A program made the position numbers and the translations under genes. DNA of 64,000 nucleotides, from positions 199,793 through 263,792 of the forward strand of contig JBFWNS010000002.1 in NCBI GenBank assembly GCA_050250935.1. The letters run 5' to 3'. Below the pieces are notes generated by a model. It had not been told where the DNA came from and did no database searches. It saw only the letters and a list, made by a program, of their open reading frames with translations. The DNA is from Candidatus Margulisiibacteriota bacterium (lineage in GTDB: Bacteria > Margulisbacteria > Marinamargulisbacteria > JBFWNS01). Positions 12,389 to 28,154 of the stretch are shown in pieces; the stretch's first letter is position 1; the number at the start of each line of letters is the position of its first letter.

Positions 12389-14038
12389 TTAAGAGACGGG
12401 GCCAACCATCACGCTTTGCATACACGCATACAAGGTTCCGATAAAGTTCCGTGGACATGTGTCTGGATGCGGTGAACCGGGCACAGTCGTCACCGTGGAT
12501 CGTCTGAACAAAGCCTCAATCACACGATAAAGCGTTTTGGGCGCATGTCCCACGGCAGGACATGTGACATTTCCACCACCAAATGCCGTGGTTTTTGGCA
12601 AAGATTCATCTGCCCAACGTTCGGGTTTAAACGCTGTTGGATCGACAAACACGTCTGGGTCTTGCCCCATCCACAACGAATTTAATACCACAAAACTCCC
12701 TTTAGGGATGACTTTTCCAGAAGCCAAAGTGATAGACTCTTGCGGAATAATCGGGACCAACGGGGATGGCGGGTCCAGCCGCAGCACTTCTTGGATAACC
12801 TGTCTTAATAAGGGAGAATCTCCAGATTCCAACTCACGTCTAATTTGTGCTGTCCACTCAGAACTGCTCTGGTGAGCCAACCGGTATAGGGTCCACGACA
12901 AAGCGGTGGCCAGTGCATCTGAACCCACATGTAAAATGGCCGTGACTTGGCGGACATAAGCCTCACTTTTTAAAAGGGCATGAAGCTGATCGGGGTTATC
13001 TCTTAATGCGTGTAACTTTGCTTCGTATTTGGCTGTACCCAAAGCACCGTACTTGCCTTGGGCTTGTTCATCCATCATTTTACAAACCATCTGCAGGGCA
13101 AAAGGAAGCTTTGCATAACAAACTGGCTTTTCTGAATCTGAAAGAACAAGGTCAGACGTTAACTGAGCTTGCATCGTGTCAAACAAGAGGGTATCCAGAA
13201 GTTCTCCGGCCATTTCAAATTCACTATCAATCGCACTTGGACGCATCCACAAATCGGTTATTTTTTGATAAACACCCAAAAAGGCATCGGCCAGCACCAA
13301 TGCCAACCTCGGATCCGGATTTGGAATCCCAAAAGCCTGCCTTAACATCACCCCCATGCTAAACGTATGGGCCAATGCAGAAAGATCCATCGATTGCTTA
13401 GGATCCACATACAACAGGGCCGCTTCCATGCTGTTGACCACATCCGCTTCAGAAGGCACTTTGGTTGCCTGTTTGTAGAACAGGGTCATCATCTGATGAT
13501 CTTTTGGAAGCGCAGAAAACGGGGATTCTCCAAAAAACCGATTTCGAACAAAGGCCATGGGTTGCCGCAAATGGGCAACTGTTGAATACCCCGTCTCTGG
13601 GTTCAGTTTGACACGGTCTAGAAACTCTTTTTGTTCCGCATTGGTGGACAAGTACACCGAATGACCGTCGCCTAGTTTTGTAGGTAAAGACGTTGGCGTC
13701 CTTCCAGCTTGTTTGGCCGCTTGATCAGCCTGATATTGTTCTGCTCCACGTTGCTTCAAAAAGGCTCCAAGTTCTGTTCCATAGGTTCGCCCAGCTGCAT
13801 TGGTTGGGTCTTTTGCAAGACGATTAGACAGAAAACCGGGGGTTGGCGCATCTTTGGGATGGTGCACACGAATGTCTTGTAAGGATGTAGCCGGGTCTAT
13901 GTCGGACTTACCAGTTTTTCTATTCACCCCATAGTGAATGGTGGGGTCCCCAAACAAATAATCCCCCACCCTTCTCACAAAATCCCGCTTAGCCGGGGAC
14001 GGTAAATGATAGGTTCGAACACTGATAAATTTGTACAT
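12389..14038 (-). CDS. Cytochrome P450-like protein, extended (549 aa) with non-canonical heme loop
   Basis: ExxR motif (EVLRLDPP), PERW motif (FKPERW) and Cys-ligand loop FGGGNVTCPAVG (FxxGxxxCxA). Roughly 150 extra N-terminal residues. Confidence 0.7.
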   Translation of the reverse strand: MYKFISVRTYHLPSPAKRDFVRRVGDYLFGDPTIHYGVNRKTGKSDIDPATSLQDIRVHHPKDAPTPGFLSNRLAKDPTNAAGRTYGTELGAFLKQRGAEQYQADQAAKQAGRTPTSLPTKLGDGHSVYLSTNAEQKEFLDRVKLNPETGYSTVAHLRQPMAFVRNRFFGESPFSALPKDHQMMTLFYKQATKVPSEADVVNSMEAALLYVDPKQSMDLSALAHTFSMGVMLRQAFGIPNPDPRLALVLADAFLGVYQKITDLWMRPSAIDSEFEMAGELLDTLLFDTMQAQLTSDLVLSDSEKPVCYAKLPFALQMVCKMMDEQAQGKYGALGTAKYEAKLHALRDNPDQLHALLKSEAYVRQVTAILHVGSDALATALSWTLYRLAHQSSSEWTAQIRRELESGDSPLLRQVIQEVLRLDPPSPLVPIIPQESITLASGKVIPKGSFVVLNSLWMGQDPDVFVDPTAFKPERWADESLPKTTAFGGGNVTCPAVGHAPKTLYRVIEALFRRSTVTTVPGSPHPDTCPRNFIGTLYACMQSVMVGPVS

Positions 14039-14505: not shown

Positions 14506-15741
14506 ATGAACCACACCTCCTTTTTTAAGCTTCTCTCCTCTCGTTTTTTGTATTCCATGGCGGTTCAAATTCAGGCTCTGGTCTTGGGCTGGCAGATGTA
14601 TACCTTGACCCACAGCCCGGTCTATTTGGGGTTGATTGGATTGGCCGAGGCGGTTCCAGCCCTTAGCTTGGCCTTGTTTTCGGGATACCTGATCGACCGC
14701 TCTAATCCCATGAAAATGTTAACCTTTTCCATTGTGGTGGGTCTGGTTTCAGCTTCGTTTTTGTGGGCACCCCATTTGCCCGGTATCCATCTGGGGTTGA
14801 AACTGCAAATCATCTGCCTGTTTTTGTCTTCTTTTTTGACTGGCATTTCCAGATCGTTTTTACACCCCAGCGTCTTTGCCATCGTGCCCCGCATTGTCGA
14901 GCGCAGCTATTTGCCAAAATCCTCGGCGTGGATGACGATGGCCTATCAAACCGCCAGTGTGTCTGGCCCAGCCATTGGGGGGCTATTGTTTGGATTTTTT
15001 GGCATTTTTACAGCTGCCTCGGTGGTGGTGGGACTAACCACCTTGTCTTTGCTGGGATTAAGTTTGACCCATTTTGCTTGGACCCCTGCCCCGCAACAAC
15101 CGGTTCGGGGGCGGTTTAAAGTCGAGTTGATGTCTGGGCTTCGATTTGTGTTTAAACACCCGCTCTTATTGCCTGCCCTATCCTTGGACATGATTTCGGT
15201 GTTGTTTGGGGGCATTACGGCTTTGCTTCCTATTTATGCAGCCGAAATCTTGTTTGTGGGGCCCATTGGACTGGGCTGGCTTCGGGCAGCAACAGCCATT
15301 GGTGCCGGCGGCGTCAGTCTTGCGCTCACCCAAATTGAAATCAAAAAGAAAGCCGGTCGCTTGCTATTGGGCTCTGTAACAGGGTTTGGGGTTTGCATTT
15401 TGGTGTTTGCCATCAGCAAAAACTATGTCTTGTCTTTCGGAGCCTTGCTGCTGAGTGGCATGTTCGATTCCGTCAGTGCGGTGATCCGCTCGGCCTTGGT
15501 TCAATTGTCCTCGCCCGACGAGCTTCGGGGCCGCATTTCTGCAGTGAACATGGTTTTTATCAGCTCTTCGAACGAGCTTGGGGAATTTGAATCGGGCATG
15601 GCGGCTAAGTTGTTGGGCACTGTTCCTGCTGCCGTCTTTGGCGGCATTGTTTGCTTGCTAACGGTGGGTACCGTAACCCTGTTTTCAAAACCCCTGCGGG
15701 AATTGGATTTGTCTAGGCTTAGGCCGGAAGAGACGTTGTAA
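14506..15741 (+). CDS. MFS transporter
   Basis: 12-TM profile with MFS-like loop motifs. Confidence 0.85.
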   Translation: MNHTSFFKLLSSRFLYSMAVQIQALVLGWQMYTLTHSPVYLGLIGLAEAVPALSLALFSGYLIDRSNPMKMLTFSIVVGLVSASFLWAPHLPGIHLGLKLQIICLFLSSFLTGISRSFLHPSVFAIVPRIVERSYLPKSSAWMTMAYQTASVSGPAIGGLLFGFFGIFTAASVVVGLTTLSLLGLSLTHFAWTPAPQQPVRGRFKVELMSGLRFVFKHPLLLPALSLDMISVLFGGITALLPIYAAEILFVGPIGLGWLRAATAIGAGGVSLALTQIEIKKKAGRLLLGSVTGFGVCILVFAISKNYVLSFGALLLSGMFDSVSAVIRSALVQLSSPDELRGRISAVNMVFISSSNELGEFESGMAAKLLGTVPAAVFGGIVCLLTVGTVTLFSKPLRELDLSRLRPEETL

Positions 15742-16864
15742 AAAAAGTCTCTGCAGCGTTTCGATCGATGATCATCGGCACTGCATTTGGGTAGATCTTT
15801 AAAAACTTCTCTAACCCGCGATGCCGGCTGGCTTTATGGTCAGATTTAACTTCGATCGCGTACAATTTTTCATTGGTTTGAAACACAAAATCCACCTCAT
15901 CATTACCGTCTCGATAATAGGAAAGTTGGCCTTTTTGAAGCGATAAATGGGCACCAACAGCCGCCTCTAGAAGTCGCCCTTTCCAAATTGAGTCTTCTTT
16001 TTTGGAGCCATGAAGGGCCTGAGGCAAGGCGTTGTTTAAGGGAAGTAACTTTGGTGCGGACGATCGTCGTCGGAGTTCAGACCCGCCATATTTTTGAAGA
16101 GCTTTAACTAAAAATGCCCCTTCAAACAAGGTCAAATAATGCTGAATGGTGGTGATGTTACCCTTATCTTGTAATTGCCCCAACAACTTGGTCAGGGAAA
16201 TTTCCTGGGCCGGATAGGCCATTGCAAGTTCAAAACACTGTCGAAAAAGGGCTGGCTTGTGCACCGTTGCTACTTGCAAGATATCTTTGGACAAAACCGG
16301 TTCGATAATGCCGTATTTAACATAGTCTTCCCAACGCTCTTGATTCGAAACCAATTCTGCGGCGCCCGGATAGCCGCCATAGGTTAAATAGGTCTCCAAG
16401 TTCCAACCAAAAGCTTCTTTACAATGGGTATAGCTCCAATGTGGGGCAAAAATCAATTCAAATCGGCCCGCCAAGCTTTCCGAAAGTCCTTGCTGAATAC
16501 TTAAGCTCGCCGAACCCAAGAGCACCACTTTCATGGAACGAGAGGCCCGTTCTTGATCAAACATGACTTTAATCACCCGACTCCAATCCCGTACCTTTTG
16601 AATTTCATCAAAAACCAGCAACACATTGTTACCCATGCTTTTGGCCAATTTCCATTGAACTTCGATCCAGCTTTCGGTGGGTGCAGCCACTTCGTCTGCC
16701 GTCACCATCAAAGTAGGCCCTTTCCACCGAGAAACGATACTTTTTAGCGCTGTGGTTTTACCCACCTGCCTAGGCCCCAAGACAACCTGAATAAAATTCA
16801 AATCAGATTGAAGGCGTTGTTCTAAAAAATGTTCAAATTCCGGCTTCATTAAGTTCATATTCAA
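15719..16864 (-). CDS. AAA+ ATPase (COG1373 / DUF4143 family)
   Basis: Walker A GPRQVGKTT near the N-terminus, Walker B LLVFDEIQ, and a C-terminal DUF4143-like region. Confidence 0.8.
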   Translation of the reverse strand: MNMNLMKPEFEHFLEQRLQSDLNFIQVVLGPRQVGKTTALKSIVSRWKGPTLMVTADEVAAPTESWIEVQWKLAKSMGNNVLLVFDEIQKVRDWSRVIKVMFDQERASRSMKVVLLGSASLSIQQGLSESLAGRFELIFAPHWSYTHCKEAFGWNLETYLTYGGYPGAAELVSNQERWEDYVKYGIIEPVLSKDILQVATVHKPALFRQCFELAMAYPAQEISLTKLLGQLQDKGNITTIQHYLTLFEGAFLVKALQKYGGSELRRRSSAPKLLPLNNALPQALHGSKKEDSIWKGRLLEAAVGAHLSLQKGQLSYYRDGNDEVDFVFQTNEKLYAIEVKSDHKASRHRGLEKFLKIYPNAVPMIIDRNAAETFFTTSLPA

Positions 16865-16971: not shown

Positions 16972-18099
16972 ATGTCAGACAAATTTTCTTTAAAAGACCA
17001 TCTGTTTAATGCCACAACCGTTGAAAAACTGGCTGCCGAACTATTGGTTGCCTATCCTGCTTTTAACTCAAAAAGCTTTACCCAAACCGTTTTGGCCAAG
17101 TTCCCTGAACTGGAGCTTAAAGCTCGGATTGCTTGGATTTCCGAAACCCTCAAACAACACCTTCCCCCCAACTATCCCGATGCCTTGGCCATTGTACTGG
17201 CCGCTTTGCCAGCGCCCTGTGACCCCAGCAAAACCGACAACGATTTTGGAAGCTTCACCTATGCCGCCTATGGCGATTTTGTGGCTAAAAATGGCTGCAC
17301 AAAACCCCATTTAACCCAAAGTTTAGAAGCCCTAAAAGCCATTACCACCCGATTTTCGGCAGAAGATGCCATTCGCCCTTTTTTGAATGCCTTTCCCAAC
17401 GAAACTTTGGCTGTTCTTAAACATTGGACCCAAGACAAGCACTATCACGTTCGTCGGCTGGTCAGCGAAGGCACCCGCCCCAAACTGCCTTGGGCACCTA
17501 AAATTTTTTTGGATCCTCGCCAAGCACTTCCGCTTTTGGACGCTCTTTTTGCAGATTCCACCCGCTATGTCACCCGCTCGGTGGCCAACCATTTAAACGA
17601 CATTGCCAAGCTGGACCCTGGCTTGGTGCTGAAAACCCTGGATCGCTGGCAAACCAGCAAACGCCAAACCCCAGCCGAAATGGCCTATCTATGCCGCCAT
17701 GCGTTGCGGGGCCTCATCAAAGCGGGGCACGCCGATACCCTGCGCTTTTTAAACTATTCGCCTGAAGCTCAGGTGAGTTTATCCCACTTCTCTCTTGAAA
17801 AATCAGTTGTCAAAATCGGGGAAGCCCTGGTTTTTTCGCTTGAATTAAGGGCTCAAAAAGCCGAACGGGTGGTGGTGGACTATGTACTTCATTTTCAAAA
17901 CAAAGCCGGCGAAATGGCCAGCAAAAAAGTGTATAAACTGACTGAATGCACCCTCCAAAAAGGCGAACCCCAGTGCTTTTCCAAACGCCACCCCCTTCGC
18001 GCCAACATGACCACCCGCCCCCTATTTCCCGGCGCTCATCGCGTGGATATTCAGATTAACGGGCAGTGTTTGGGGTCTTTGGATTTTGAATTAATTTAG
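16972..18099 (+). CDS. DNA alkylation repair protein (AlkC/AlkD-like HEAT-like repeats with C-terminal extra domain)
   Basis: About 370 aa, helical-repeat composition, with HYHVRRLVSEGTRPKLPW-type basic repeat loops. A C-terminal beta-rich ~100 aa is as in long AlkC. Confidence 0.45.
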   Translation: MSDKFSLKDHLFNATTVEKLAAELLVAYPAFNSKSFTQTVLAKFPELELKARIAWISETLKQHLPPNYPDALAIVLAALPAPCDPSKTDNDFGSFTYAAYGDFVAKNGCTKPHLTQSLEALKAITTRFSAEDAIRPFLNAFPNETLAVLKHWTQDKHYHVRRLVSEGTRPKLPWAPKIFLDPRQALPLLDALFADSTRYVTRSVANHLNDIAKLDPGLVLKTLDRWQTSKRQTPAEMAYLCRHALRGLIKAGHADTLRFLNYSPEAQVSLSHFSLEKSVVKIGEALVFSLELRAQKAERVVVDYVLHFQNKAGEMASKKVYKLTECTLQKGEPQCFSKRHPLRANMTTRPLFPGAHRVDIQINGQCLGSLDFELI

Positions 18100-18117
18100 C
18101 TGGTTGATTTCGCCCAA

Positions 18118-19419
18118 CTACGCGTTGGGAAACCACAGCTTAAGTTGCGTTCCCGGCCGATGCTCTGGGTCGCTTTCTAGGGTGATTTTCCCCTTAAAGT
18201 CGTTGACCAACCCCTGAACAATGGCTAGACCAAACCGGTGTTGCTCGCCGTTGTCTTTGAGGGCGACTTCCTGGTTAAAAAAGGTCGCTTGCTGCTCTTT
18301 GGAAAGACCAGGGCCGGTATCTCGAACACAGACACAAACCCCTTCGATGCCATCCCGACTTTCGGTTTCAGTGGACAAATACAATTCGCCACCGTCTGGC
18401 ATCACCGCCAAAGCATTGCTGATGAGGTTGGTGAAAATTTGAAACATCCCGCGCTGTGTCCCCATCACCCCTGGGGTTTCGTGCAAATAGTCCACCATTT
18501 TGATGTTCTGCTGCACACATTTGGCCTTGCTTAATTTAATGATTTTTTCCAAGGTACTTTGAACCTGAAGTTTTTCCAGCACCGTGCCCCCACCCGCCGC
18601 ACTTAGCATGCCACTGAGCACCGATTGCATGTCTTTGACCGTTTGATCCACAACCCCAATGGCACTTTTTAAACGATCCGGCTGATCGATGACAAACTGC
18701 AGCCCATAGGTGGTCATGCCCAACAAATGCAGGGGATTTTTAAGCTCGTGGGCAATCTGCTCGGTCAAAAGGGCATAGGCCCGATACCGCTCGGCCTCGG
18801 CCAGCCGCTCGGATTGGGATTTTAGAACTCGGTTTGCGGATTCGAGTTGGGCATTGGAAAGGTTTAAATCTGAAACAGCTTGTTCCAAATCCAGCAAAGC
18901 AATTTTCGAGCTATTATAATAAAAATAGATCGCAAAAATAATCATCGAAAATGTCATCAACATAATGGTGATATACACAAATTGAAGCTGAGATTTCGGC
19001 AAAATAACGGTTGGAAATAACGCATAGTTGGTTATCTCGAGCAAAATCAGACCCCCTATCGACAAAGCAATACCAAATACAGCCCCCTGCCATTCTTTTT
19101 CGCCAAAAACCACAAAAGAAACAGCCGACAAGCCATAAAACACCCACTGGATACCGCTATCTCGACCCAAAGACGACGCATAGAACAAGACAGCTGCCCA
19201 AGTACAAATTACAAGCCCCAAACGTGATATAGTGGGGAACCGTTGATTTAAATAAAGGCAAAGGGATAAAACCAGAACAACAGGCCAACAAATAAAGCTT
19301 AGAAGACTTTGCCCAATAATTTGAAAAATAATGCCCCAAGGAACCGCAATGCCAATCAGCAAAAGGGCAACATTTCGGGTCAACGTTTTCCGATTCTGAT
19401 ACCGATCTAGCTGTTGCAT
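18118..19419 (-). CDS. Membrane sensor histidine kinase (paralog of 21438-22757)
   Basis: Multi-TM N-terminal half, H-box IAHELKNPLHLL and HATPase_c G-boxes (DTGPGL, GLGLAIV). Only a 10-bp gap after the upstream gene. Confidence 0.85.
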   Translation of the reverse strand: MQQLDRYQNRKTLTRNVALLLIGIAVPWGIIFQIIGQSLLSFICWPVVLVLSLCLYLNQRFPTISRLGLVICTWAAVLFYASSLGRDSGIQWVFYGLSAVSFVVFGEKEWQGAVFGIALSIGGLILLEITNYALFPTVILPKSQLQFVYITIMLMTFSMIIFAIYFYYNSSKIALLDLEQAVSDLNLSNAQLESANRVLKSQSERLAEAERYRAYALLTEQIAHELKNPLHLLGMTTYGLQFVIDQPDRLKSAIGVVDQTVKDMQSVLSGMLSAAGGGTVLEKLQVQSTLEKIIKLSKAKCVQQNIKMVDYLHETPGVMGTQRGMFQIFTNLISNALAVMPDGGELYLSTETESRDGIEGVCVCVRDTGPGLSKEQQATFFNQEVALKDNGEQHRFGLAIVQGLVNDFKGKITLESDPEHRPGTQLKLWFPNA

Positions 19420-19428
19420 TAAAGGGTC

Positions 19429-21336
19429 TTAATCGGCAATAACAACAGGGCTTCGAAGCCGATACCGACTACTTTCCTCAGTAAACAACACGTTCGAACC
19501 TTGCCAGCACTGCCATTGTTCAAATTTAGCTTGAAGGGCATCTATAGCTCTACGCTTCTCTGATTCAAGTTCATCAGGCCGAATCTCAAAGTCGTCATCC
19601 CAAAGATGTCCAACGTCCCCAAAAAGCTCCGTATAACTTCGATGAAATTCAGCCATATGTTTATCGTGGGAATCTGCTAAATAATGCACAGCCTCTAGAA
19701 AACGTCTACCATAGGAAGTCACACCTGACGAATTCATTCTGATTTTTAAAAGATTGGGCTCATCGCTATCCCATTCTTTAGCCCCCCCCAAATCATTTAC
19801 CAAACAAATGGCTGTATTGATATTTGTATCCATAATTCCATATAAATGGGACTGTCTGAGTTTATCAGGAATCTGAATATTTAATAAAAATTCACCCAAA
19901 ACAAAAACGGTTGGAACTGCCCCGCTGGTTCTGCGATGATTCAAATACTGCTCAACCGGCGGTGCTTTTTCACGAATTTGCATTTCAGCAACAGCCGATT
20001 GAAAATATTGATTTGCTTTATCATAAAAAGCATTTAATAAATCCGAATCTACTTTTGTTGACTGTTGGTGCTGTCGTAAACGGCACCCAAAATCATAGAT
20101 GGCTCGGCCTAAAACTTTTGCCTGTTGCAGTTCCGATGAGGTTAAAACAGTTGACCAGTCATATTGGCGCTCATCTGCGCTATGAGCATCCGATCGGTCT
20201 AGTTCTTGTTCAAAATCTTCAAAGGTGTACTTTTCGTTTTTCAATAAACTCATTAACAGTCGGTTAAATGCTTGTAACAAGGGCTTATTCTCAAGCTTTC
20301 CAAATGTTGCGTCTTTTCTGTCGATCAAATCATCAAACAAAAATAAAATTAATACCCACATGGTATTAATTTTGTGTTTTTCAATATCTTTGGTTTGTAA
20401 AAGGGCATTAACCGCAAGCTCAATGAACTTACTGTTCTCAAAAGATCGAATAACATGATCACGATCTTGTTCATCACAGGCTTTTAACACGTCCCGGTAC
20501 CACACAAACATGTCTTCAATCACTTGTTGGATCAAGCCCGATTCATGCCGAGTTGGCTTTCTCCCAACCTGTAATTCAACAACCAAGGGCCTTCTGTTAA
20601 TCTCAAAGGACACATGAAACTTCTGGGTCACGCCCTGCTCAACGGTGGTGCTTGAAGCAACACATTCAACCCTCTCAGATGTTGGCTCAGGTAAAGTTTG
20701 GGCAGCAGCAGCAGCAGCAGACGCTCTTGCTCCATTTAAATCGGGAAAATTCGGGGGTACAGGTAGTCTTTGATCACCAAAAAAGGATGGGGGTCTTTTA
20801 ACGGGCACAAAATCTGGCTCTGAACCAATCTGAAAAGAATCATTGGAAACGGGTTTGATGGGTGGGGTTTCCGAACTATTAGGTCGGAAATTTGGACTTC
20901 GGCCTGGGGGTTCTTCGGATCCTGATGTTGGGGTTATGCTTCTGGGAAGTACCGTAATCACCTGTGTTGCAACTATTTTTATACTGACTCTTACTTCTTC
21001 AATTTTAAGAGGCTGACCGTCTACTGGTTTTGCGCCAGCAATCATGGCTTTAATCATGGCGCCTTTTTCTGTAGGCCCACTCTCTTTAGCCAAATGCAGA
21101 CCAATATCGTGTATAAGATCAAAAATTTGTACAGCGTTTGCTTCTGAAACCCCATCCCGTGTACTCTGCAAATATGGCAAAATATCTCTAACCGAGACTA
21201 CCGGCGTCCGATCCCCAAAAATTTCTGTAAACCTTGCCAATAGCGGTACTTCTGGTGCAACAGGCCTAGGCGGCTCGATTTGCCAAGCCATAGGTACTGC
21301 AATTTGTTTATGATGAAGTGGACAATATTTTTTCAT
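19429..21336 (-). CDS. Two-domain protein: N-terminal unknown/Pro-rich region plus C-terminal class-I terpene-synthase-like domain
   Basis: The sites that support the call are: LILFLFDDLID (DDxxD at aa 335-339); RR at 468-469, 46 aa before an NSE-like NDLGGAKE (514-521); and an RY pair 11 aa from the C-terminus. GAGG RBS upstream. Confidence 0.5.
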   Translation of the reverse strand: MKKYCPLHHKQIAVPMAWQIEPPRPVAPEVPLLARFTEIFGDRTPVVSVRDILPYLQSTRDGVSEANAVQIFDLIHDIGLHLAKESGPTEKGAMIKAMIAGAKPVDGQPLKIEEVRVSIKIVATQVITVLPRSITPTSGSEEPPGRSPNFRPNSSETPPIKPVSNDSFQIGSEPDFVPVKRPPSFFGDQRLPVPPNFPDLNGARASAAAAAAQTLPEPTSERVECVASSTTVEQGVTQKFHVSFEINRRPLVVELQVGRKPTRHESGLIQQVIEDMFVWYRDVLKACDEQDRDHVIRSFENSKFIELAVNALLQTKDIEKHKINTMWVLILFLFDDLIDRKDATFGKLENKPLLQAFNRLLMSLLKNEKYTFEDFEQELDRSDAHSADERQYDWSTVLTSSELQQAKVLGRAIYDFGCRLRQHQQSTKVDSDLLNAFYDKANQYFQSAVAEMQIREKAPPVEQYLNHRRTSGAVPTVFVLGEFLLNIQIPDKLRQSHLYGIMDTNINTAICLVNDLGGAKEWDSDEPNLLKIRMNSSGVTSYGRRFLEAVHYLADSHDKHMAEFHRSYTELFGDVGHLWDDDFEIRPDELESEKRRAIDALQAKFEQWQCWQGSNVLFTEESSRYRLRSPVVIAD

Positions 21337-21400
21337 AGAAAATGGGGACCTCTGACAGAGGTAAAAGGGTTAGAAAAATGGGGTAGAAACGCTATGAAAT

Positions 21401-21441
21401 AATTCTAAACCCATTCCCCCAAAAGTAAAAGATTTTTTTAT
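21401..21441. repeat. 41-bp conserved element, copy A (upstream of the terpene-synthase-like gene)
   Basis: aattctaaacccattcccccaaaagtaaaagatttttttat is identical to 22837-22877. Partial similarity extends about 20 bp further. Confidence 0.6.
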
Positions 21442-22757
21442 GTCAACTTCTGGTTGATTTGAAAAGTGACTTGAAAAGTTGTTCCAAGTCCCTGCTCTGT
21501 AGTAATGTGGAGTTTTCCTCCCTGCGCCGCCACAACCTCCTTAACAAACGTCAGTCCAAACCCCGAATTCCCAACCTTGGTACTAAACCCTTCCTCAAAA
21601 ATTTGATCCATAATCTCTGGGGCAATCCCTCCGGCATTATCCCGAAGTCCAAACAAAACCCCACCTTCCGTTCTTTTTGCCGAAAATTCTAGCTTGGTAG
21701 CCCCCGCTTGAATGGCGTTGACCATAAGATTGATGATGACGTTTTGAATTGCCCCTTCATGGCCATAAATAAGGGGAAGGTTCGATTCAAAATCCAACGT
21801 GGCTTGAACATTTTTTAGACAAAGATCTCCCTTTGACATGGTTAGCAAGGCTCGAACCATGGATTCCAATTCAAAAGTACTCGTTGCAGAAATGCTGAGG
21901 GAATTTTGGTGCAGAAGGGTTTCGACCAAATTATAGAGATTGGCGATAGTCCCTCTTAAGATGTTGGCTATTTTTTCGATATCATCTGGGCTTTTGGCGT
22001 ATTGAGACATAAGGTCGGGGACATTGGTCATCAAGCTGAGTGGATTTTTGATTTCGTGGGCAATGTGCTGGGTCATGGTGGCGAATTGGGCTTTTTGGGT
22101 TAAGGACTTATTGGTTTCCCAAAGTGTGGCGTGGGCAGATTGAAGTTGGGTGAGGGTCGTTTCAACTTGCTGTAAAGCTATTTGGAGGTTTTCTTCGTGA
22201 TATTCATTGAGTGCAATATAATAACGGAGGGTTAAGAATACCATGCTAAAAGCAACTGCTAGGCTTAAAAAAGACAGTGAAAAAGAAGCTGTTGTTGAGA
22301 TCTGGACCGATGAAATTTTATGGGAATACAAAGGCCACAATTGTAATAAAACCATGGTTGAGAAAGGAATAGTAAAAGCTACAATTTGAAGTATTTTTTC
22401 TCTGGGGCTAAACAAAGCCAAAGAAACGGCTGCAATAACAACAGCAACAATTTGAATACCTGCCTTTGGACCTAAAATAAATGCAAAGGTAAGAATAGCC
22501 AGGCAAGTTGAAAAAACAATTGCGAGCTTTCCTAGCTTGATAAAGCCTTTGGAAATAAAAGTATAGGAACTTAGAAATAAAAGGACAAAAGGAATCACCA
22601 AAAGCGCTAATCTAGGGAACCCTAAAAACAAAAATAAGAGACTATAAGGAACCCCAGCGGCGGAACCCACTAAAATTAATGTATTGGCCAAATACAGGCG
22701 CCTTTTTTCGGGTTGCTGAATAAAACTAGAGCCCGTTTCTAGTATTTTTGTAAGCAA
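21438..22757 (-). CDS. Membrane sensor histidine kinase (paralog of 18118-19419)
   Basis: Same architecture as the downstream kinase: multi-TM N-terminus, H-box IAHEIKNPLSLM and HATPase_c motifs. Confidence 0.85.
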   Translation of the reverse strand: MLTKILETGSSFIQQPEKRRLYLANTLILVGSAAGVPYSLLFLFLGFPRLALLVIPFVLLFLSSYTFISKGFIKLGKLAIVFSTCLAILTFAFILGPKAGIQIVAVVIAAVSLALFSPREKILQIVAFTIPFSTMVLLQLWPLYSHKISSVQISTTASFSLSFLSLAVAFSMVFLTLRYYIALNEYHEENLQIALQQVETTLTQLQSAHATLWETNKSLTQKAQFATMTQHIAHEIKNPLSLMTNVPDLMSQYAKSPDDIEKIANILRGTIANLYNLVETLLHQNSLSISATSTFELESMVRALLTMSKGDLCLKNVQATLDFESNLPLIYGHEGAIQNVIINLMVNAIQAGATKLEFSAKRTEGGVLFGLRDNAGGIAPEIMDQIFEEGFSTKVGNSGFGLTFVKEVVAAQGGKLHITTEQGLGTTFQVTFQINQKLT

Positions 22758-22836
22758 TGATTTGGCCTTTTATTGTGGCATAGAGCTTTACAAATGGAAC
22801 TCTATTTACAAAAAATAAGGGGAAACTTATGTACAG

Positions 22837-22877
22837 CAATTCTAAACCCATTCCCCCAAAAGTAAAAGATTTTTTTA
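22837..22877. repeat. 41-bp conserved element, copy B (upstream of sensor kinase 21438-22757)
   Basis: Identical to 21401-21441. Lies 79-120 bp upstream of the minus-strand kinase start. Confidence 0.6.
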
Positions 22878-23018
22878 TACTCCTTTAGGGTTGACTTGAA
22901 AAGAAAATGGCTTCATGAACTATGCCAAGACACCATAACGACTTTTTAAAGAAATCCGTGAAAGACAGCCACTTTTTTTGACTTTTTCACGATTTTTATC
23001 TGAATTTCGTTATTCTGT

Positions 23019-24137
23019 TTACTTTAATAAGGCCAAAACCGCCGCTTCCAAGGTGGGGTATTTTACAAATTCTGGCCAGAGGTCTTCCATGCCCTGGGGT
23101 TTGGGGGCGGAAGGAAAAAAAGATTTAAATACCGAAGGGCGAATGGGCAGGTGTTTTTCTAGGGCTTCTTTGGCATAGTTGGCAAACAAGGCAAAGCGGT
23201 TTTGGAAGGGAAGATCGCCACTGGCGTTTTCAAGGTCATAACAGTGGACCAGATCGTGAATTTTTTGGTTGATGGTTTCGGGATGGGCCGATTTGTTTAG
23301 ATAGTCCCGAACCCCGCGTTCAAATCCGGTTTTGGCAACAGGGGTATCTTCGTAGGCGGTCAGCATCAGAATCATGGCTTTCGGGGCCAGTTTTTTGATT
23401 TCGGGGATTAAGTCGTGGCCTTTTTTACCTGGCAATTCCACATCCAAAACCACCACGGCAACGTCTTTGTTTTGGGCCAAAATTTCCAGGGCTTCGTCGG
23501 CCTCTTTGGCATCCAAAATGGTATAGATTTTTTCCAAAGACAACCGAAACGCTTCGGCGATAAAGGCTTGGTCGTCAATAACCAAGACCTTCTGTTTTTG
23601 GGGCCTAAAAAAAGCTTCGGGCAAACTTAAATGCACCCCAAATTCGACTTCGTTTCCTTTTAACTTCATCCATTCCGCTTCCAAATTCGCCTGCACCAAC
23701 AACCGGGTTTCTTCGAGGGGGCCATCGGGCTTAAACTGTTGGGCGGCATAGCGCTTTAACGATTCTGTGGCATAGTTGGCGAAGGTGGTTTTGCAAAATT
23801 CCAGCAAGGGTTTATCGAAGGCATCGAAGACAAAAACCCCGCCCAAACGCATCAGGCGGACGGTGGCGTTATGATGGGTAATGCCCACAATCATGACGGG
23901 GATGTGGGAATAGGTGATTTGGATGTCTTGAACGGCACTTTCGAGTTCGGACAAAGAGAATCCGCCACAATCAATGACAACCACAGAAAACGAGGTGTTT
24001 TCGAAGCTTAAATCAGAAATCAATTCCTCTTGGTTTGAAAACCATCGGGACGAGACTTGATCGGCAAAAAAAGCCTCGAAAAACGCAACCCGTGTCGGGT
24101 CTTCGGACAAAATATAAGCAATAAAATTAGAATCCAT
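23019..24137 (-). CDS. Response regulator with tandem receiver domains (first degenerate) and C-terminal domain of unknown function, no DNA-binding output
   Basis: Second REC is canonical: KVLVIDDQ...VVVLDVELPG...ILMLTA...K. The first is a pseudo-receiver. 14 bp downstream of the glyS stop. Confidence 0.7.
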   Translation of the reverse strand: MDSNFIAYILSEDPTRVAFFEAFFADQVSSRWFSNQEELISDLSFENTSFSVVVIDCGGFSLSELESAVQDIQITYSHIPVMIVGITHHNATVRLMRLGGVFVFDAFDKPLLEFCKTTFANYATESLKRYAAQQFKPDGPLEETRLLVQANLEAEWMKLKGNEVEFGVHLSLPEAFFRPQKQKVLVIDDQAFIAEAFRLSLEKIYTILDAKEADEALEILAQNKDVAVVVLDVELPGKKGHDLIPEIKKLAPKAMILMLTAYEDTPVAKTGFERGVRDYLNKSAHPETINQKIHDLVHCYDLENASGDLPFQNRFALFANYAKEALEKHLPIRPSVFKSFFPSAPKPQGMEDLWPEFVKYPTLEAAVLALLK

Positions 24138-24151
24138 CCCCGACTGCCCCC

Positions 24152-26179
24152 TTACACCACAATTTTTTCGAAATCTCCAATAGACTTAAACAACCCATTA
24201 ATTTGAGACAAAAACGCCAAGCGGTTGGCTCGAATTCCCTCGTCTGGGTCCATGACCATAACCTGATCAAAATAGGTGGTTAGGGTTGGGATGAGGGTTT
24301 GAACCATCGGCTTGTAGTGGTCGATGACGGTCTGCGGGGTAACCCCAGCTGGAAACAGGGCTTTGAAAGCATCCAAAGCCACCCCTTCTTGAGCGTCTTT
24401 AAACAAACGGGGCTCCACTGCCGATACCGCTTCCGATTTTACCAATCGGGCGACCCGAACCCCCAGATCCACCCAGGCTTTAAAATGGGGCTCTTGGCGG
24501 CGGGCTTTTAAGAAGGTCAAAGCAGCCAGTTGTTGGCTGGGTTTTCCAGCAAAATTAGCCATAACAGCATCGACCAAATCGTAGTCGAATCCGCGCAGCT
24601 CTTTAAAAAACAAACTGACCCGCTGTTTGAAAAAATCCAAACAGTCTTTTTTTCCTGTTTGGGTTTGGAGGCCCTCAAAGGCAGCATCCAGACCCTCGGT
24701 TAAAGAAAAGGAAGTCCAGTCGGGCAAGGTTAAATTCATTTCCAAAATCGCATTGGCCATCCGACGAATGCTCCAGGGATCTTGAGAGCCGGTTGGAATC
24801 AGTCCGTTTACAAAACAGGCTGCAATTGTGTCCAACCGATCGGCGATGCCAACCACAGACCCCGCAAGGGTTGTAGGCAAGCTATCCCCAGCAAATCGGG
24901 GCAGATAGTGCTCTTCGATGCCCAAGGAAACGGGCTCGGGCAGCCGGTGATACCGGGCATAAACCGCCCCCATTTTGCCTTGAAGCTCTGGCAATTCGTA
25001 GACCATTTGGGTGGTTAAATCAGACTTGGACAACCGGGCAATGATTTCGATATTGGGGTCTGTTTTTCCAATAAACGAAGCCAACTGGATCGACAGGCGC
25101 TGAATTCGCGCCACTTTGTCGGCCAAGGTTCCCAACCCTTTTTGGAAGACCACGGTTTTTAATTTTTCGGCGTGTTGGTCCAGGGTTTGTTTGATGTCTT
25201 CTTCGTAAAAAAACCGTACATCGTCCAAACGGGCCACCAAAACTTGGCGGTTGCCTTTTCGAATATTGGCCTCGCTTTTGGGGGTGACATTTTCGGCCAC
25301 CACGGCAAAGGAATGGGTTAATTGACCGTTGTTGAGAATGGGAAAGTATTTTTGATGCTTTTTCATACAGGCAATTAAAGCCTGTTGGGGCAGGCGTAAA
25401 AAGTCGTCGGGAAACGATTCGACCAGCACCGTTGGCCATTCGCACAAATAGGTGACTTCTTCGAGCAAGCCTTCGTCGGATTGGGCGCCATGGGTTTCCA
25501 GTGCTTTGCGAATCGCCTGCTTGCGTTTGGCGGGGTCTACTACCACATGGGCATTTTCCAGAATCGTTTCGAATTGGGTGGCTTCTGGGACTGGAATGGG
25601 CTGATGATCGGCTAAAAACCGGTGCCCCCAAGTCTCGGGTTTGCTTTGAATGCCATACAAATTCAGAGGAATAGCGGTGTTGCCATGCAAACAAAGCACC
25701 CAATGCACGGGCCGAATAAAGGCCTTGCTTTCGTGCCCCCATTTCATGGCAATGGGCAAGGGCAAATTGGCCACAACCGATTCCAACAGTTCGGGCAAGA
25801 CTTGAACAGCAGGCGCAACCGATTCGTCGCGATAGGCCACCACATAGGATTTCCCTTGCTCTTCTTCAACAACGAAAGCATCGGGATCGATTCCGGCTTT
25901 TTTGGCAAAGCCAATGGCCGGGGCAAGCCATTCGCCGTTGGTGCCTTTGGCTGCGGCCAATTGTGGGCCACGCAATCGGGTTTTTCCGCCGGTTTGCTCG
26001 GTGGCCAAGTTGGCCATCAGAACAAAACGTCTGTAGGTTCCCAAGGTTCGGACCTCGGTTGCAGCCAATCGGTGGCTGGCAAAGGCCGTCTCGGCTGCCG
26101 TTTTTAGTTGGTTTAAAAAGTCTGTCATAAAGCGGGCGGGAACCTCTTCCACACCCAGCTCGAATACAAATGGCCTCAT
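24152..26179 (-). CDS. glyS: Glycine--tRNA ligase beta subunit
   Basis: [19 protein letters not shown]-terminus and overall GlyS-beta length. The start was chosen at M13 of the track ORF, giving an ATGA overlap with the upstream ATPase stop. Confidence 0.9.
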   Translation of the reverse strand: MRPFVFELGVEEVPARFMTDFLNQLKTAAETAFASHRLAATEVRTLGTYRRFVLMANLATEQTGGKTRLRGPQLAAAKGTNGEWLAPAIGFAKKAGIDPDAFVVEEEQGKSYVVAYRDESVAPAVQVLPELLESVVANLPLPIAMKWGHESKAFIRPVHWVLCLHGNTAIPLNLYGIQSKPETWGHRFLADHQPIPVPEATQFETILENAHVVVDPAKRKQAIRKALETHGAQSDEGLLEEVTYLCEWPTVLVESFPDDFLRLPQQALIACMKKHQKYFPILNNGQLTHSFAVVAENVTPKSEANIRKGNRQVLVARLDDVRFFYEEDIKQTLDQHAEKLKTVVFQKGLGTLADKVARIQRLSIQLASFIGKTDPNIEIIARLSKSDLTTQMVYELPELQGKMGAVYARYHRLPEPVSLGIEEHYLPRFAGDSLPTTLAGSVVGIADRLDTIAACFVNGLIPTGSQDPWSIRRMANAILEMNLTLPDWTSFSLTEGLDAAFEGLQTQTGKKDCLDFFKQRVSLFFKELRGFDYDLVDAVMANFAGKPSQQLAALTFLKARRQEPHFKAWVDLGVRVARLVKSEAVSAVEPRLFKDAQEGVALDAFKALFPAGVTPQTVIDHYKPMVQTLIPTLTTYFDQVMVMDPDEGIRANRLAFLSQINGLFKSIGDFEKIVV

Positions 26180-27297
26180 GGTTTGGATCCTTCTTGCGCT
26201 TTGGCTTTCAAACACACCACCCCACCCTCTGTGCGTTTGAACAACACGAGATTTTCGAGTTCAAATTCCCCAATCAAAACGGGATTTTGGACATCCAAGA
26301 TCACCTGGGTCTGCTCGCTGGCAGCCAAAAACAGCCGATGCAACTGAGGCAAAAGACTGGCGTGAAGGCCAGCATCGGGAAACTTAATGCCCATGACGGT
26401 CGGTTTTTGGGGATGCAAACACAACACCACCCAGCACAAAAATCGGACCCAAGCATCGGACCATTCGTAGATGGGCAACTTCACCGAAACCTCTTGGACA
26501 GAGGCCAAAACCATGCACTCTCGACTTAGGCCTTTTTGATTGACGGTTAAGGACAGAATCGCAGGAAAAGCGGTTTTGAGTTCCGCTTCGATGGCCTGAA
26601 ACACGGTTGGGTTTTTGTGTTGTAATTCGTAAAGCAGGCTCGGCAAATTCGAGGCATCTTCGGCCAAAAAAGTGTCTTTTCCGGCGTCTCCCACATCCAT
26701 AAACCGTTTGGCAAAGAGGGTTTCTGCCTTGTACAAGCGCCATCCCGAAATAAAGTGCTTAACACTGGCAATCACACCCAAGCTGGGGTCTTTGATCTGG
26801 GCCAGCCCCAGGCTGTTGGGCTCTCGGGTTCGAAACGTGTGTTTAATTCCCCAATGACTGACCGTGCCTTGGGTATTTTTTCGCTCGGGATCGTCGGCAA
26901 TGCCCTCTTGGTTTTTCACTTGCATGAAGTCGAAACTGTGGTTTGGCGCCGTGCCTTTGATGCGTTCGGACACCACGGCCAACCGTTGCAAAGGACCTTT
27001 AAGCTCGCCTTGGTAAAACAAGTACGATTCGAGTTTGGCATCGGCCTCGATTTTAAGGCTCCATAACAGGGACGATTGGGCATTGAAAAACACCTTGGTC
27101 CCCACATGGGTTGCCCATAATTCGGGGGTCATTTGGCCTTCGTTTAGGCTGTCTCTGAGGGCGGACAAAAATCCAAACACCGACGACTTGCCCACCCCAT
27201 TTTCGCCCAAAAAAACCGAAAGTCGGTTCAAAGGAACGGTGATGTCGTCGAACAGGCGATAGCCCTGCAACCGAATGGATTTGATTATGGATTTCAC
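26176..27297 (-). CDS. SMC/ABC-like P-loop ATPase (AAA_21/RecF-like fold) inserted between glyQ and glyS
   Basis: [14 protein letters not shown]...GENGVGKSS Walker A at the N-terminus and a C-terminal [15 protein letters not shown]-loop-like region. ATGA overlaps at both ends. Confidence 0.65.
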
Positions 27298-28154
27298 TCG
27301 GGCTCCTTGATGTACAACTCGGCACAGCCTCGGGCCAGTTTTCGAATGCGCAGAATGGTAGCCGTTCTTTCGGAAACTGAAATGGCGCCTCGGGCATCCA
27401 ATAAATTAAAGGTATGCGAGCATTTTAAGCACCAATCATAGGCCGGAATGGCCAATCCAGCTGCCAAGACCCGCTGGGTTTCAGCCTCGTAAAGGGCAAA
27501 CAATTGAAAAAGCATCTCGGTGGATGCCTCTGTAAAATTATAATGACAATTTTCGATTTCAGACTGCTTGTAAATGTCCCCATAGGTGACGATCTTGTCT
27601 TTGTGGGTTTGCCACACCAAATCGTAGACCGTTGGTTTTTGTTGAATAAACATGGCCAAGCGTTCTAGCCCATAGGTAATTTCAACCGAAATGGGGTTCA
27701 CATCCACCCCGCCGCATTGTTGGAAATAGGTAAATTGGGTCACTTCCATGCCATTTAGCCAGACTTCCCAGCCCACACCCCAAGCACCAAGGGTTGGCGA
27801 TTCCCAGTTGTCTTCGACAAACCGAATGTCGTGTTCTTCGGGAATAATCCCCAACCCGCGCAAACTGTTTAAATAGAGTTCTTGGACGTTCAGCGGCGAA
27901 GGCTTCAAAATCACTTGAAATTGAAAATAGTGTTGAAGGCGATTGGGGTTTTCGGCATATCGACCATCGGTGGGACGGCGGCAGGGTTCGACATAGGCCA
28001 CGTTCCAATCGCTGGGACCCAAGACCCTTAAAAAAGTGTGGGGGCTCATCGTGCCAGCCCCTTTTTCAGTGTCATAGGGGTTTAAAATCAGACACCCTTG
28101 TTCGTCCCAATATCGCTGTAAATTAAAAATGATTTCTTGAAAAGTAAGTGCCAC
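27294..28154 (-). CDS. glyQ: Glycine--tRNA ligase alpha subunit
   Basis: [21 protein letters not shown]...[15 protein letters not shown] is canonical GlyQ. Confidence 0.95.

What the first reader, a model, noticed from the sequence alone, without database searches (positions are those of the whole stretch)
19429..21336. Terpene-synthase catalytic motifs at canonical spacing in a 635-aa two-domain protein
Read directly from the translation: LILFLFDDLIDRKD (DDxxD, aa 335-339) closely matches the bacterial sesquiterpene-cyclase Asp-rich motif (pentalenene synthase FFLFDDLFD). A basic pair RR sits at 468-469, exactly 46 residues upstream of an NSE/DTE-like NDLGGAKE (514-521). An RY dimer lies at 624-625, 11 residues from the C-terminus. 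These are the four hallmarks of bacterial class-I terpene cyclases in the correct order. The NSE motif is one residue short (NDxxGxKE), so activity is uncertain. The N-terminal ~280 aa, with a Pro-rich linker and an Ala6 run encoded by a GCA repeat, is of unknown function.
Basis: seen in the sequence. Interest (0 to 1): 0.7.

Follow-up and report, generated by a model that had tools for sequence, protein, structure and literature searches.

The report
Terpene synthase paired with membrane sensor
The gene really does encode a divergent bacterial terpene synthase, and in every relative examined it sits directly upstream of a gene for a membrane-embedded (MASE7) signalling protein, which suggests a terpene-linked signalling module that the literature searched here does not describe.

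Summary
ORF 19429-21336 (minus strand, 635 aa) carries DDLID (335-339), R468, NDLGGAKE (514-521) and RY (624-625) exactly as stated.

- Pfam Terpene_syn_C_2 scores 75.9 bits (cutoff 23.7).
- A clade profile hits T-muurolol synthase at E=1.7e-20.

The "one-short" NSE motif is not a lesion. It is conserved across a rare clade (28 hits in 1.84 billion representative proteins). About 200 N-terminal residues are mostly disordered and lineage-specific.

New finding: in 13 of 13 clade members with readable context, the synthase gene is followed, usually within 2-23 nt, by a gene with a homologous six-helix MASE7 membrane domain. That domain is fused to either a histidine kinase or a PP2C/SpoIIE phosphatase. 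Synthase and sensor co-diverge (r=0.81, Mantel p=2e-4), output domains swap within subclades, other flanking genes differ, and two outgroups lack the pairing.

The most likely reading is an active synthase whose hydrophobic product, or the synthase itself, feeds the intramembrane sensor. That step is inferred, not shown.

The parts
19429..21336 (-). Terpene synthase gene, 635 aa including the stop codon at 19429-19431. An alternative start at M16 (nt 21291) was used by a public gene call.
20677..21336 (-). N-terminal extension, aa 1-220. It is Pro/Ala/Ser-rich and mostly predicted disordered (aa 1-61 and 124-218 have pLDDT below 50), with low-confidence helices at aa ~62-123. It has no homologue in other clade members.
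20701..20718 (-). Ala6 run, aa 207-212. It reads (GCA)6 on the + strand and lies inside the disordered linker.
20566..20667 (-). Clade-specific beta-hairpin/three-strand element, aa 224-257, preceding the helical core. pLDDT is 86-93. It corresponds to the 'PTGF...' block of relatives.
19432..20565 (-). Class I terpene synthase alpha-helical catalytic domain, aa ~258-635.
20320..20334 (-). Asp-rich metal-binding motif DDLID, aa 335-339. D335 and D339 are invariant in the clade. The second Asp varies (D/N/S) in relatives.
19921..19935 (-). R468-R-T-S471-G472: the diphosphate-sensor Arg, 46 residues before N514, with the linker and effector positions. R, S and G are invariant. It aligns to ARLFSGAV of T-muurolol synthase.
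19774..19797 (-). NSE-type motif NDLGGAKE, aa 514-521. Glu is at i+7 instead of i+8 and Gly takes the Ser/Thr position. N, D, K and E are conserved across the clade, followed by the clade signature W-x3-EPN-x-LK.
19462..19467 (-). C-terminal RY pair, aa 624-625. Y is invariant in the clade.
18118..19419 (-). Partner histidine kinase HK1, 433 aa. It has a six-helix MASE7 membrane domain (aa ~1-175), then DHp and HATPase_c. Its start codon lies 9 nt after the synthase stop codon.
21438..22757 (-). Upstream paralogous kinase HK2, 439 aa, with the same type of six-helix membrane domain. It is orthologous to the upstream kinase-like gene of the P0007 locus (L037).
23019..24137 (-). Response regulator, 372 aa. 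It has a REC domain at aa 184-293, preceded by sequence that reads by eye like a degenerate receiver (no profile or comparison here confirms this), and no DNA-binding output domain detected. It is the first gene of the same-strand four-gene block.

Best explanation
The gene encodes a cytoplasmic, divergent bacterial class I terpene synthase. Its layout is a ~220-aa largely disordered N-terminal tail, a small clade-specific beta element, and a complete alpha-helical cyclase domain. That domain has an Asp-rich motif, a diphosphate-sensor Arg with an S-G effector, an ND..KE motif and a C-terminal RY. It most likely binds a housekeeping prenyl diphosphate through Mg2+, ionises it and releases a hydrophobic terpene. 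FPP is the best guess for the substrate, because no dedicated prenyl-chain synthase lies next to any clade member. The enzyme belongs to a rare clade whose members are always encoded immediately upstream of a signalling protein. The input domain of that protein is a six-helix, loop-poor MASE7 membrane domain, and its output is either a histidine kinase (as here) or a PP2C/SpoIIE phosphatase. The proposed mechanism is a synthase-receptor pair. The terpene partitions into the membrane and is detected by the MASE7 domain. In this window, the MASE7 domain then controls kinase activity towards a receiver-only response regulator. Shown: family membership, fold, conservation of catalytic residues, and the conserved, co-diverging gene pair. 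Inferred: catalytic competence, the substrate, and above all that the product is the sensor's ligand.
Against: No product, substrate or ligand has been demonstrated. The ND..KE motif places Glu one residue early and has Gly where Ser/Thr normally binds Mg2+(B), so activity could be impaired or altered. Many clade members have DNxxD or DSxxD instead of DDxxD, which fits a binding role as well as a catalytic one. Gene adjacency cannot say which way information flows: product to sensor, sensor to enzyme, or protein-protein contact. The sensor model is low confidence (pLDDT 52), so no binding cavity could be examined. No prenyl diphosphate synthase or tailoring gene is linked, so the substrate is a guess. 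The sample of contexts is small (13) and comes entirely from metagenomes.
Confidence: 0.45

Rival explanations
1. It is an ordinary secondary-metabolite terpene synthase that happens to be regulated by the neighbouring two-component or phosphatase system. The MASE7 sensor responds to some unrelated membrane stimulus and merely switches terpene production on or off. The terpene would then be an end product (defence, membrane modifier or volatile), not the sensor's ligand.
For: Pathway-specific regulators commonly sit beside biosynthetic genes (general knowledge). The synthase looks catalytically complete. The window block also contains a second kinase and a response regulator.
Against: The associated response regulators have no DNA-binding output: they are REC-only or multi-REC in the window, L031, L033 and L040. 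About half the partners are PP2C phosphatases. Neither is a typical transcriptional switch for a one-gene pathway. The sensor gene lies downstream of the synthase in the same transcription unit, so it cannot easily pre-regulate it. Conservation follows the membrane input domain rather than the output. No tailoring or export genes are conserved alongside.
Confidence: 0.25
2. The protein is a terpene-synthase-fold co-sensor rather than an enzyme. It binds a prenyl diphosphate, reporting on the isoprenoid or cell-envelope precursor pool, or another anionic ligand. It then modulates the MASE7 kinase or phosphatase by direct protein-protein contact, perhaps through the clade-specific beta element or the disordered N-terminal tail.
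For: The ND..KE motif is shortened and here lacks the Ser/Thr ligand. The second Asp of DDxxD is N or S in many members. Accessory proteins co-transcribed with intramembrane-sensing kinases are a known theme (general knowledge). The clade has an extra conserved N-terminal beta element that was not seen in the sequence alignments to solved cyclases.
Against: The residues that stay invariant are the catalytic and ionisation set, including the R-x-x-S-G effector and the RY pair. A pure binding protein would not obviously need to keep these. The window protein itself has a canonical DDxxD. Gly is accepted at the middle NSE position in the published consensus (own knowledge).
Confidence: 0.15
3. 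The terpene-synthase fold is used here as a prenyltransferase, as in DabA/KabA. It would attach a prenyl group to a small-molecule or protein acceptor, and that prenylated product would be what matters for the sensor.
Confidence: 0.05

Closest known systems
Bacterial class I sesquiterpene cyclases, such as (+)-T-muurolol synthase of Roseiflexus castenholzii (PDB 9hqd/9hr0), the geosmin synthase N-domain (5dz2), selinadiene synthase (4okm) and pentalenene synthase (1ps1)
   Different: Structure-based identity is only 15-23%. Glu of the NSE triad sits one residue early and Gly replaces Ser/Thr. The protein has an extra N-terminal beta element plus a ~220-aa disordered tail, and a longer stretch between NSE and RY. 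The genomic context is a signalling module, not a biosynthetic cluster.
2-Methylisoborneol synthase of Streptomyces coelicolor (PDB 3v1x)
   Different: The tails share no sequence similarity. The MIB synthase is paired with a methyltransferase, not a sensor. The tail here is twice as long and is not conserved even within its own clade.
Autoinducer synthase and multi-pass membrane sensor kinase pairs, such as CqsA-CqsS (Vibrio) and LqsA-LqsS (Legionella) (own knowledge)
   Same: The logic is the same: a small-molecule synthase gene lies adjacent to a gene for a six-helix membrane kinase that lacks a periplasmic domain, and the hydrophobic product is sensed within the membrane domain.
   Different: There is no homology. 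The synthase here is a terpene synthase rather than a PLP-dependent acyl-CoA transferase. The sensor is MASE7 rather than the CqsS type. Half of the partners use a PP2C phosphatase output. Nothing about ligand or diffusion has been tested, so this is a 'works like' comparison only.
Classical bacterial terpene clusters (synthase + P450 / prenyl diphosphate synthase)
   Same: A P450 gene exists 5 kb away in the window (12389-14038). The outgroup P0020 shows the classical synthase-P450 pair.
   Different: The window's P450 is separated from the synthase by four genes in mixed orientation (the HK1 partner and three unrelated genes). It is absent from all 12 other clade contexts. The conserved neighbour is the MASE7 sensor.

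Membership tests
Bacterial class I terpene synthases (Pfam PF19086 Terpene_syn_C_2) | Profile HMM score above the curated gathering threshold | tested here: met
   75.9 bits against a cutoff of 23.7, E=4.7e-21, aa 327-561, covering 2-197 of 199 model positions. NCBIfam product-specific equivalogs score far below their cutoffs, so no product can be assigned.
Bacterial class I terpene synthases (Pfam PF19086 Terpene_syn_C_2) | All-alpha class I (isoprenoid synthase) fold | tested here: met
Bacterial class I terpene synthases (Pfam PF19086 Terpene_syn_C_2) | Asp-rich DDxxD/E metal-binding motif (definition: PMC10563020) | tested here: met
   DDLID at 335-339. It aligns with MDDQCD of T-muurolol synthase. 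D335 and D339 are invariant in the clade.
Bacterial class I terpene synthases (Pfam PF19086 Terpene_syn_C_2) | NSE/DTE triad with canonical spacing N-x3-(S/T/G)-x3-E (definition: PMC10563020; the consensus with Gly allowed is own knowledge) | tested here: inconclusive
   N514, D515, K520 and E521 align to the canonical columns but with a one-residue deletion, so Glu is at i+7, and Gly is at the middle position. The variant is conserved clade-wide. Metal binding cannot be judged from sequence. A solved class I synthase without the motif exists (8kih title).
Bacterial class I terpene synthases (Pfam PF19086 Terpene_syn_C_2) | Diphosphate-sensor Arg 46 residues upstream of the NSE Asn, with linker and effector residues (own knowledge of the bacterial cyclase literature; 'effector triad' in PMC10563020) | tested here: met
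   R468 is 46 residues before N514. R468, S471 and G472 are invariant and align to R-L-F-S-G of T-muurolol synthase.
Bacterial class I terpene synthases (Pfam PF19086 Terpene_syn_C_2) | C-terminal RY pair | tested here: met
   R624-Y625. Y is invariant and R nearly so. It aligns to TRY of T-muurolol synthase.
Bacterial class I terpene synthases (Pfam PF19086 Terpene_syn_C_2) | Mg2+-dependent ionisation of a prenyl diphosphate to a terpene | not testable with these tools
   This needs an enzyme assay or heterologous expression with GC-MS.
MASE7 membrane sensor domain (Pfam PF20967), for the partner gene 18118-19419 | Profile match above the curated cutoff, and a multi-pass membrane topology N-terminal to a signalling output domain | tested here: met
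   HK1 aa 9-169 score 34.4 bits against a cutoff of 26.2 (31.5 bits). It has six hydrophobic helices followed by HATPase_c. Nine of 14 partner domains hit MASE7 at E<=1.
Autoinducer synthase / membrane receptor-kinase pairs (CqsA-CqsS type) | A synthase gene adjacent to a multi-pass sensor gene, conserved across taxa | tested here: met
   13 of 13 contexts; co-divergence r=0.81.
Autoinducer synthase / membrane receptor-kinase pairs (CqsA-CqsS type) | The product is released and is the ligand of the adjacent sensor | not testable with these tools
   This requires product identification and kinase or phosphatase assays. There is no homology to CqsA or CqsS, so only an analogy is claimed, not membership.
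Classical terpene biosynthetic gene cluster | A conserved adjacent tailoring gene (P450, methyltransferase) or prenyl diphosphate synthase gene | tested here: not met
   No polyprenyl synthase was found in the 64-kb window. The P450 is 5 kb away behind four intervening genes (the HK1 partner and three unrelated genes) and is absent from all other clade loci.

The most novel reading that the evidence does not exclude
The clade defines a previously undescribed, self-contained bacterial signalling module. A dedicated terpene synthase makes a membrane-soluble terpene that is the cognate ligand of the co-transcribed MASE7 intramembrane sensor (kinase or PP2C phosphatase). This would be a terpene-based autocrine or quorum-type signal system in uncultivated bacteria, and it would give the first ligand class for the orphan MASE7 domain.
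Probability: 0.3. Interest if true: 0.85.

Novelty: new variant of a known kind. Interest (0 to 1): 0.6.

Why it matters
Bacterial terpene synthases are almost always discussed as secondary-metabolite enzymes, and what their products do for the producer is largely unknown. Here an entire, very rare synthase clade is genetically welded to a membrane sensor domain that has no known ligand. The clade gave 28 detectable relatives among 1.84 billion representative proteins, and none turned up in a signature-pattern scan of 185,579 species-representative genomes.

If the terpene is the sensor's signal, three things follow:
- It would be a new chemical class of bacterial self-signal.
- It would assign a function to MASE7.
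- It would provide a compact two-gene synthase/receptor cassette that could be tested directly and reused in synthetic biology.

Even on the conservative reading, the clade shows that an NSE motif with Glu at i+7 and Gly in the middle position is evolutionarily stable. That bears on motif-based genome mining rules.

Tried and rejected
- **Word-index searches.** The search with the full protein returned only the protein itself, apparently because the low-complexity N-terminus saturated the candidate list. Searching with the C-terminal domain gave two relatives. A profile search added only P0025.
- **Genome scans.** The scan of 185,579 species-representative genomes with clade signature peptides then found no relative. 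The second scan was therefore spent on GlyS for taxonomy. Its best hits were only 39-41% identical (Candidatus Marinamargulisbacteria/Margulisiibacteriota). GlyQ was 70-75% identical to the same MAGs and to UBP8. None of those loci carries the synthase next to glyQS. The organism remains only loosely placed.
- **P0014 hit.** This 1847-aa protein hit aa 40-99 at E=1e-12. The score is inflated by 12 near-identical repeats, each matching only marginally (28% over 60 aa, E~0.003), so I rejected it as homology for the N-terminus.
- **P450 as a cluster partner.** The P450 at 12389-14038 was rejected because it is not adjacent and not conserved in other contexts.
- **Promoter and terminator scan.** The scan of 17900-24400 gave counts no different from shuffles, so it gives no evidence on operon boundaries beyond the 9-nt gap.
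- **afdb50 fold search.** It was unavailable.
- **Sensor structure.** The fallback model from two window sequences had pLDDT 52 and pTM 0.29. I used it only for helix counting and did not use it for a fold search.
- **Response regulator comparisons.** They showed only generic REC similarity, so I do not claim orthology of the regulator.
- **Literature searches.** Searches for MASE7, terpene synthase with histidine kinase, SpoIIE or autoinducer, and Margulisbacteria with terpene found no description of this pairing. The held library is incomplete, so this is absence of evidence only.
Full report
**1. The observation**

The ORF listing finds a 635-aa ORF at 19429..21336 on the minus strand.
- LILFLFDDLIDRKD at 329-342, with DDLID at 335-339
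- RR at 468-469
- NDLGGAKE at 514-521
- RY at 624-625
- Ala6 at 207-212

R468 lies 46 residues before N514. The Ala run reads (GCA)6 on the + strand. RR occurs four times in the protein, so the dimers alone prove nothing. The ensemble is significant, as shown below. An identical protein is on record from a Logan assembly of SRR27751816, called from M16 and 620 aa long.

**2. Is it a terpene synthase?**

Yes.
- Pfam Terpene_syn_C_2 (PF19086) matches aa 327-561 with 75.9 bits against a curated cutoff of 23.7, E=4.7e-21.
- NCBIfam product-specific models score far below their cutoffs, so no product can be assigned.
- The single sequence barely detects solved structures (E~0.1). A profile of the clade hits T-muurolol synthase at E=1.7e-20 and pentalenene synthase at about 1e-6. 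In those alignments the Asp-rich motif, R-x-x-S-G-A-V, ND..KE and RY fall on the canonical positions.
- An AlphaFold2 model built on 27 family sequences has pLDDT of about 90 or higher for aa 220-635.
- Foldseek gives TM 0.80 to T-muurolol synthase, and its top 50 matches are class I terpene synthases apart from one TS-fold N-prenyltransferase, KabA, at rank 26.

**3. The 'defective' NSE motif**

The exhaustive HMMER search found only 28 proteins at E<=1e-3 among 1.84 billion representatives, and 13 at E<=1e-10. Within this small clade the 8-residue form is the norm:
- NDLGGAKE also occurs in P0006, P0009 and P0010.
- Other variants are NDIGGAKE, NDLAGAKE, NDIGSAKE, NDLGSSKE and NDGVGAKE.
- One branch has the 9-residue NDGVSxGKE.

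The form with Glu at i+7 and Gly in the middle recurs in proteins only 22-26% identical to the window protein. It is therefore maintained by selection rather than being a recent lesion. In the 18-sequence alignment D335, D339, R468, S471, G472, N514, D515 and Y625 are invariant, and E521 is at least 90% conserved. In the 27-sequence alignment R468, G472, N514 and D515 stay invariant, and D335, K520, E521 and Y625 are at least 90% conserved.

The published definition of class I enzymes rests on the DDxxD/E and NSE/DTE motifs plus basic residues and an effector triad (PMC10563020). From my own knowledge, the usual consensus already admits Gly at the middle position. A solved class I diterpene synthase is titled as lacking the motif entirely (8kih). 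I therefore rate catalytic competence as likely (about 0.65) but unproven. The second Asp of DDxxD is N or S in many relatives but D in the window protein.

**4. Architecture**

The model shows these regions:
- aa 1-61 and 124-218: disordered
- aa ~62-123: helices of low confidence
- aa 224-257: a well-predicted three-strand beta element, corresponding to a conserved 'PTGF...' block in relatives
- the rest: the helical core

The N-terminal 220 residues are Pro/Ala/Val/Ser-rich and have no counterpart in other clade members. Codon-position GC (0.58/0.48/0.29) and frame scores indicate real coding sequence. Three other members (P0008, P0010, P0028) have unrelated low-complexity extensions of similar length. 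The protein is thus one catalytic domain with a variable disordered tail, not two folded domains. By my own reading of the sequence, it contains no signal peptide or hydrophobic segment.

**5. Genomic context in the window**

Four same-strand genes form a block: a response regulator (23019-24137), kinase HK2 (21438-22757), the synthase, and kinase HK1 (18118-19419).
- The HK1 start codon lies 9 nt after the synthase stop codon.
- HK1 carries a MASE7 domain scoring above the Pfam cutoff.
- Both kinases have six hydrophobic helices with very short loops, and the last helix runs directly into the kinase core.
- The block is lower in GC (synthase 0.42, HK2 0.41) than the rest of the window (0.49).
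- No prenyl diphosphate synthase is present in the window.
- A P450 lies 5 kb away behind four genes in mixed orientation: the HK1 partner and three unrelated genes.

**6. The pairing is conserved**

I recovered the DNA or gene tables around every clade member I could reach.
- P0025 (marine, three contigs): synthase, then a kinase 2 nt later, then a single-domain receiver.
- P0003 and P0002: synthase, then a multi-pass membrane protein, fused to SpoIIE/PP2C in P0003.
- P0006: synthase, then a MASE7 kinase, then a double-REC regulator.
- L035: synthase, then a membrane domain plus SpoIIE.
- P0010 and P0005: synthase, then SpoIIE.
- P0007: kinase-like gene, synthase, kinase. This is the same sandwich as in the window, with reciprocal orthology (HK1 vs L037_HK E=1e-66; HK2 vs L037_up E=3e-33).
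- L039: two tandem synthase-SpoIIE pairs.
- P0028: synthase, then a kinase, then a multi-REC regulator.
- P0016: the contig tail after the synthase encodes the same membrane domain.

That makes 13 of 13 pairs, and 12 partners were verified by alignment, sharing the motif N-x-A-V-F-F-Y-A-x-x-L-G-x-x-S-G-I (A6). Pairwise sensor-domain BLAST gives E=1e-10 and 2e-11, and 9 of 14 domains hit Pfam MASE7. Gaps are 2-23 nt in most pairs. Everything else around the pairs differs from locus to locus, including flagellar genes, alternative complex III, RlmN, a P-type ATPase and pyruvate dehydrogenase E1. Host contig GC spans 0.33-0.50. Two outgroup synthases lack the partner: P0019 is followed by a 902-aa soluble protein, and P0020 by a P450.

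**7. What is coupled to what**

Pairwise identities of synthases and of sensor domains correlate at r=0.81, Mantel p=2e-4 over 12 pairs. The two genes have therefore been inherited and have diverged together. Output domains switch inside tight subclades:
- L033 has a kinase, while L035 and L036 have PP2C, with synthase identity of 43-50% among them.
- L039b has PP2C, while L040 has a kinase, with sensor identity of 46%.

The conserved partner is thus the MASE7 input domain, not the output. The associated receivers are REC-only or multi-REC, with no DNA-binding domain detected.

**8. Mechanism**

Shown:
- a class I synthase fold with a conserved catalytic constellation
- an obligate, co-diverging, probably co-transcribed pairing with an intramembrane sensor that has no extracytoplasmic domain

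Inferred: the enzyme turns a housekeeping prenyl diphosphate, probably FPP, into a hydrophobic terpene. The terpene enters the membrane and is read by the MASE7 helices, which set kinase or phosphatase activity. The logic resembles CqsA-CqsS or LqsA-LqsS synthase/receptor pairs (own knowledge), with no homology to them.

Rivals:
- The sensor merely regulates an ordinary metabolite enzyme.
- The synthase-fold protein is a non-catalytic prenyl-diphosphate-binding co-sensor.
- It is a DabA-like prenyltransferase.

Adjacency cannot discriminate among these. The assays listed under next steps can.

**9. Taxonomy and rarity**

GlyS of the window is at best 39-41% identical to genome representatives. 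The top hits are Candidatus Marinamargulisbacteria/Margulisiibacteriota MAGs. GlyQ is 70-75% identical to the same MAGs and to a UBP8 MAG that NCBI leaves unclassified. The organism is therefore an uncultivated, poorly sampled lineage, loosely near Margulisbacteria. A pattern scan for the clade in 185,579 representative genomes found nothing.

**10. Verdict**

On its own the gene is a new, divergent member of a known enzyme family. The added value is the invariant synthase-MASE7 module, for which I found no description in the held literature. I classify it as a new variant of a known kind, with interest 0.6.

Noticed in passing
window 59753-64000: The tmRNA gene (59753-60132, +) is overlapped at its 3' end by a large serine recombinase gene (60121-61695, -). 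A MerR/HEPN protein (61692-62402, -) follows. GC drops to 0.40-0.45 and GC skew flips over this stretch. It looks like a mobile element integrated at the tmRNA gene.
   Followed up: partly
window 26176-27297 (-): An AAA_15/AAA_21 (AbiEii/OLD-like) ATPase ORF sits between glyQ (27294-28154) and glyS (24152-26215), overlapping both. In the Margulisbacteria-like loci fetched here, glyQ abuts glyS directly. This may be an insertion of a defence-type ATPase into the glyQS operon.
   Followed up: no
window 12389-14038 (-): A 549-aa cytochrome P450 in which only aa 351-494 match PF00067, leaving a long unmatched N-terminal part. It is flanked by a TonB-dependent receptor (10280-12319) and an MFS transporter (14506-15741). 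It is not conserved near synthase relatives.
   Followed up: partly
window 41692-43644 (-), 52758-54179 (+), 54201-55601 (+), 57841-59637 (+), 36088-37038 (-), 37086-38393 (+): Six sizeable ORFs (316-650 aa) have no Pfam match at E<=1e-3 or 1e-4. This fits a poorly sampled lineage.
   Followed up: no
window 34229-36001 (-): A 590-aa protein whose only Pfam hit is HATPase_c near the N-terminus (aa 133-241). This is a GHKL ATPase layout unlike a classical histidine kinase.
   Followed up: no
window 15719-16864 (-); L037 3628-4800 and 5405-6559: AAA_14/DUF4143 ATPase genes lie within a few kb of the synthase module, both in the window and (two copies) in the distantly related P0007 locus. This could be coincidence or a shared mobile context.
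   Followed up: no
L039 3202-9116: The synthase-SpoIIE pair is duplicated in tandem. The first copy (452 aa) is highly divergent: 13-18% identical to the others, with SDDWAD and NSVVSSPKE motifs.
   Followed up: partly
window 18118-24137: The four-gene signalling/synthase block has lower GC than the rest of the window (synthase 0.42, HK2 0.41, against 0.49), and the synthase has weaker codon bias than housekeeping genes. This hints at horizontal acquisition.
   Followed up: partly
window TS aa 40-99 vs P0014: A 1847-aa repeat protein (P0014) hits the N-terminal region at E=1e-12, but only through 12 near-identical repeats that each match marginally. I judge it spurious, though the origin of the aa 62-123 helical segment remains unexplained.
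   Followed up: partly
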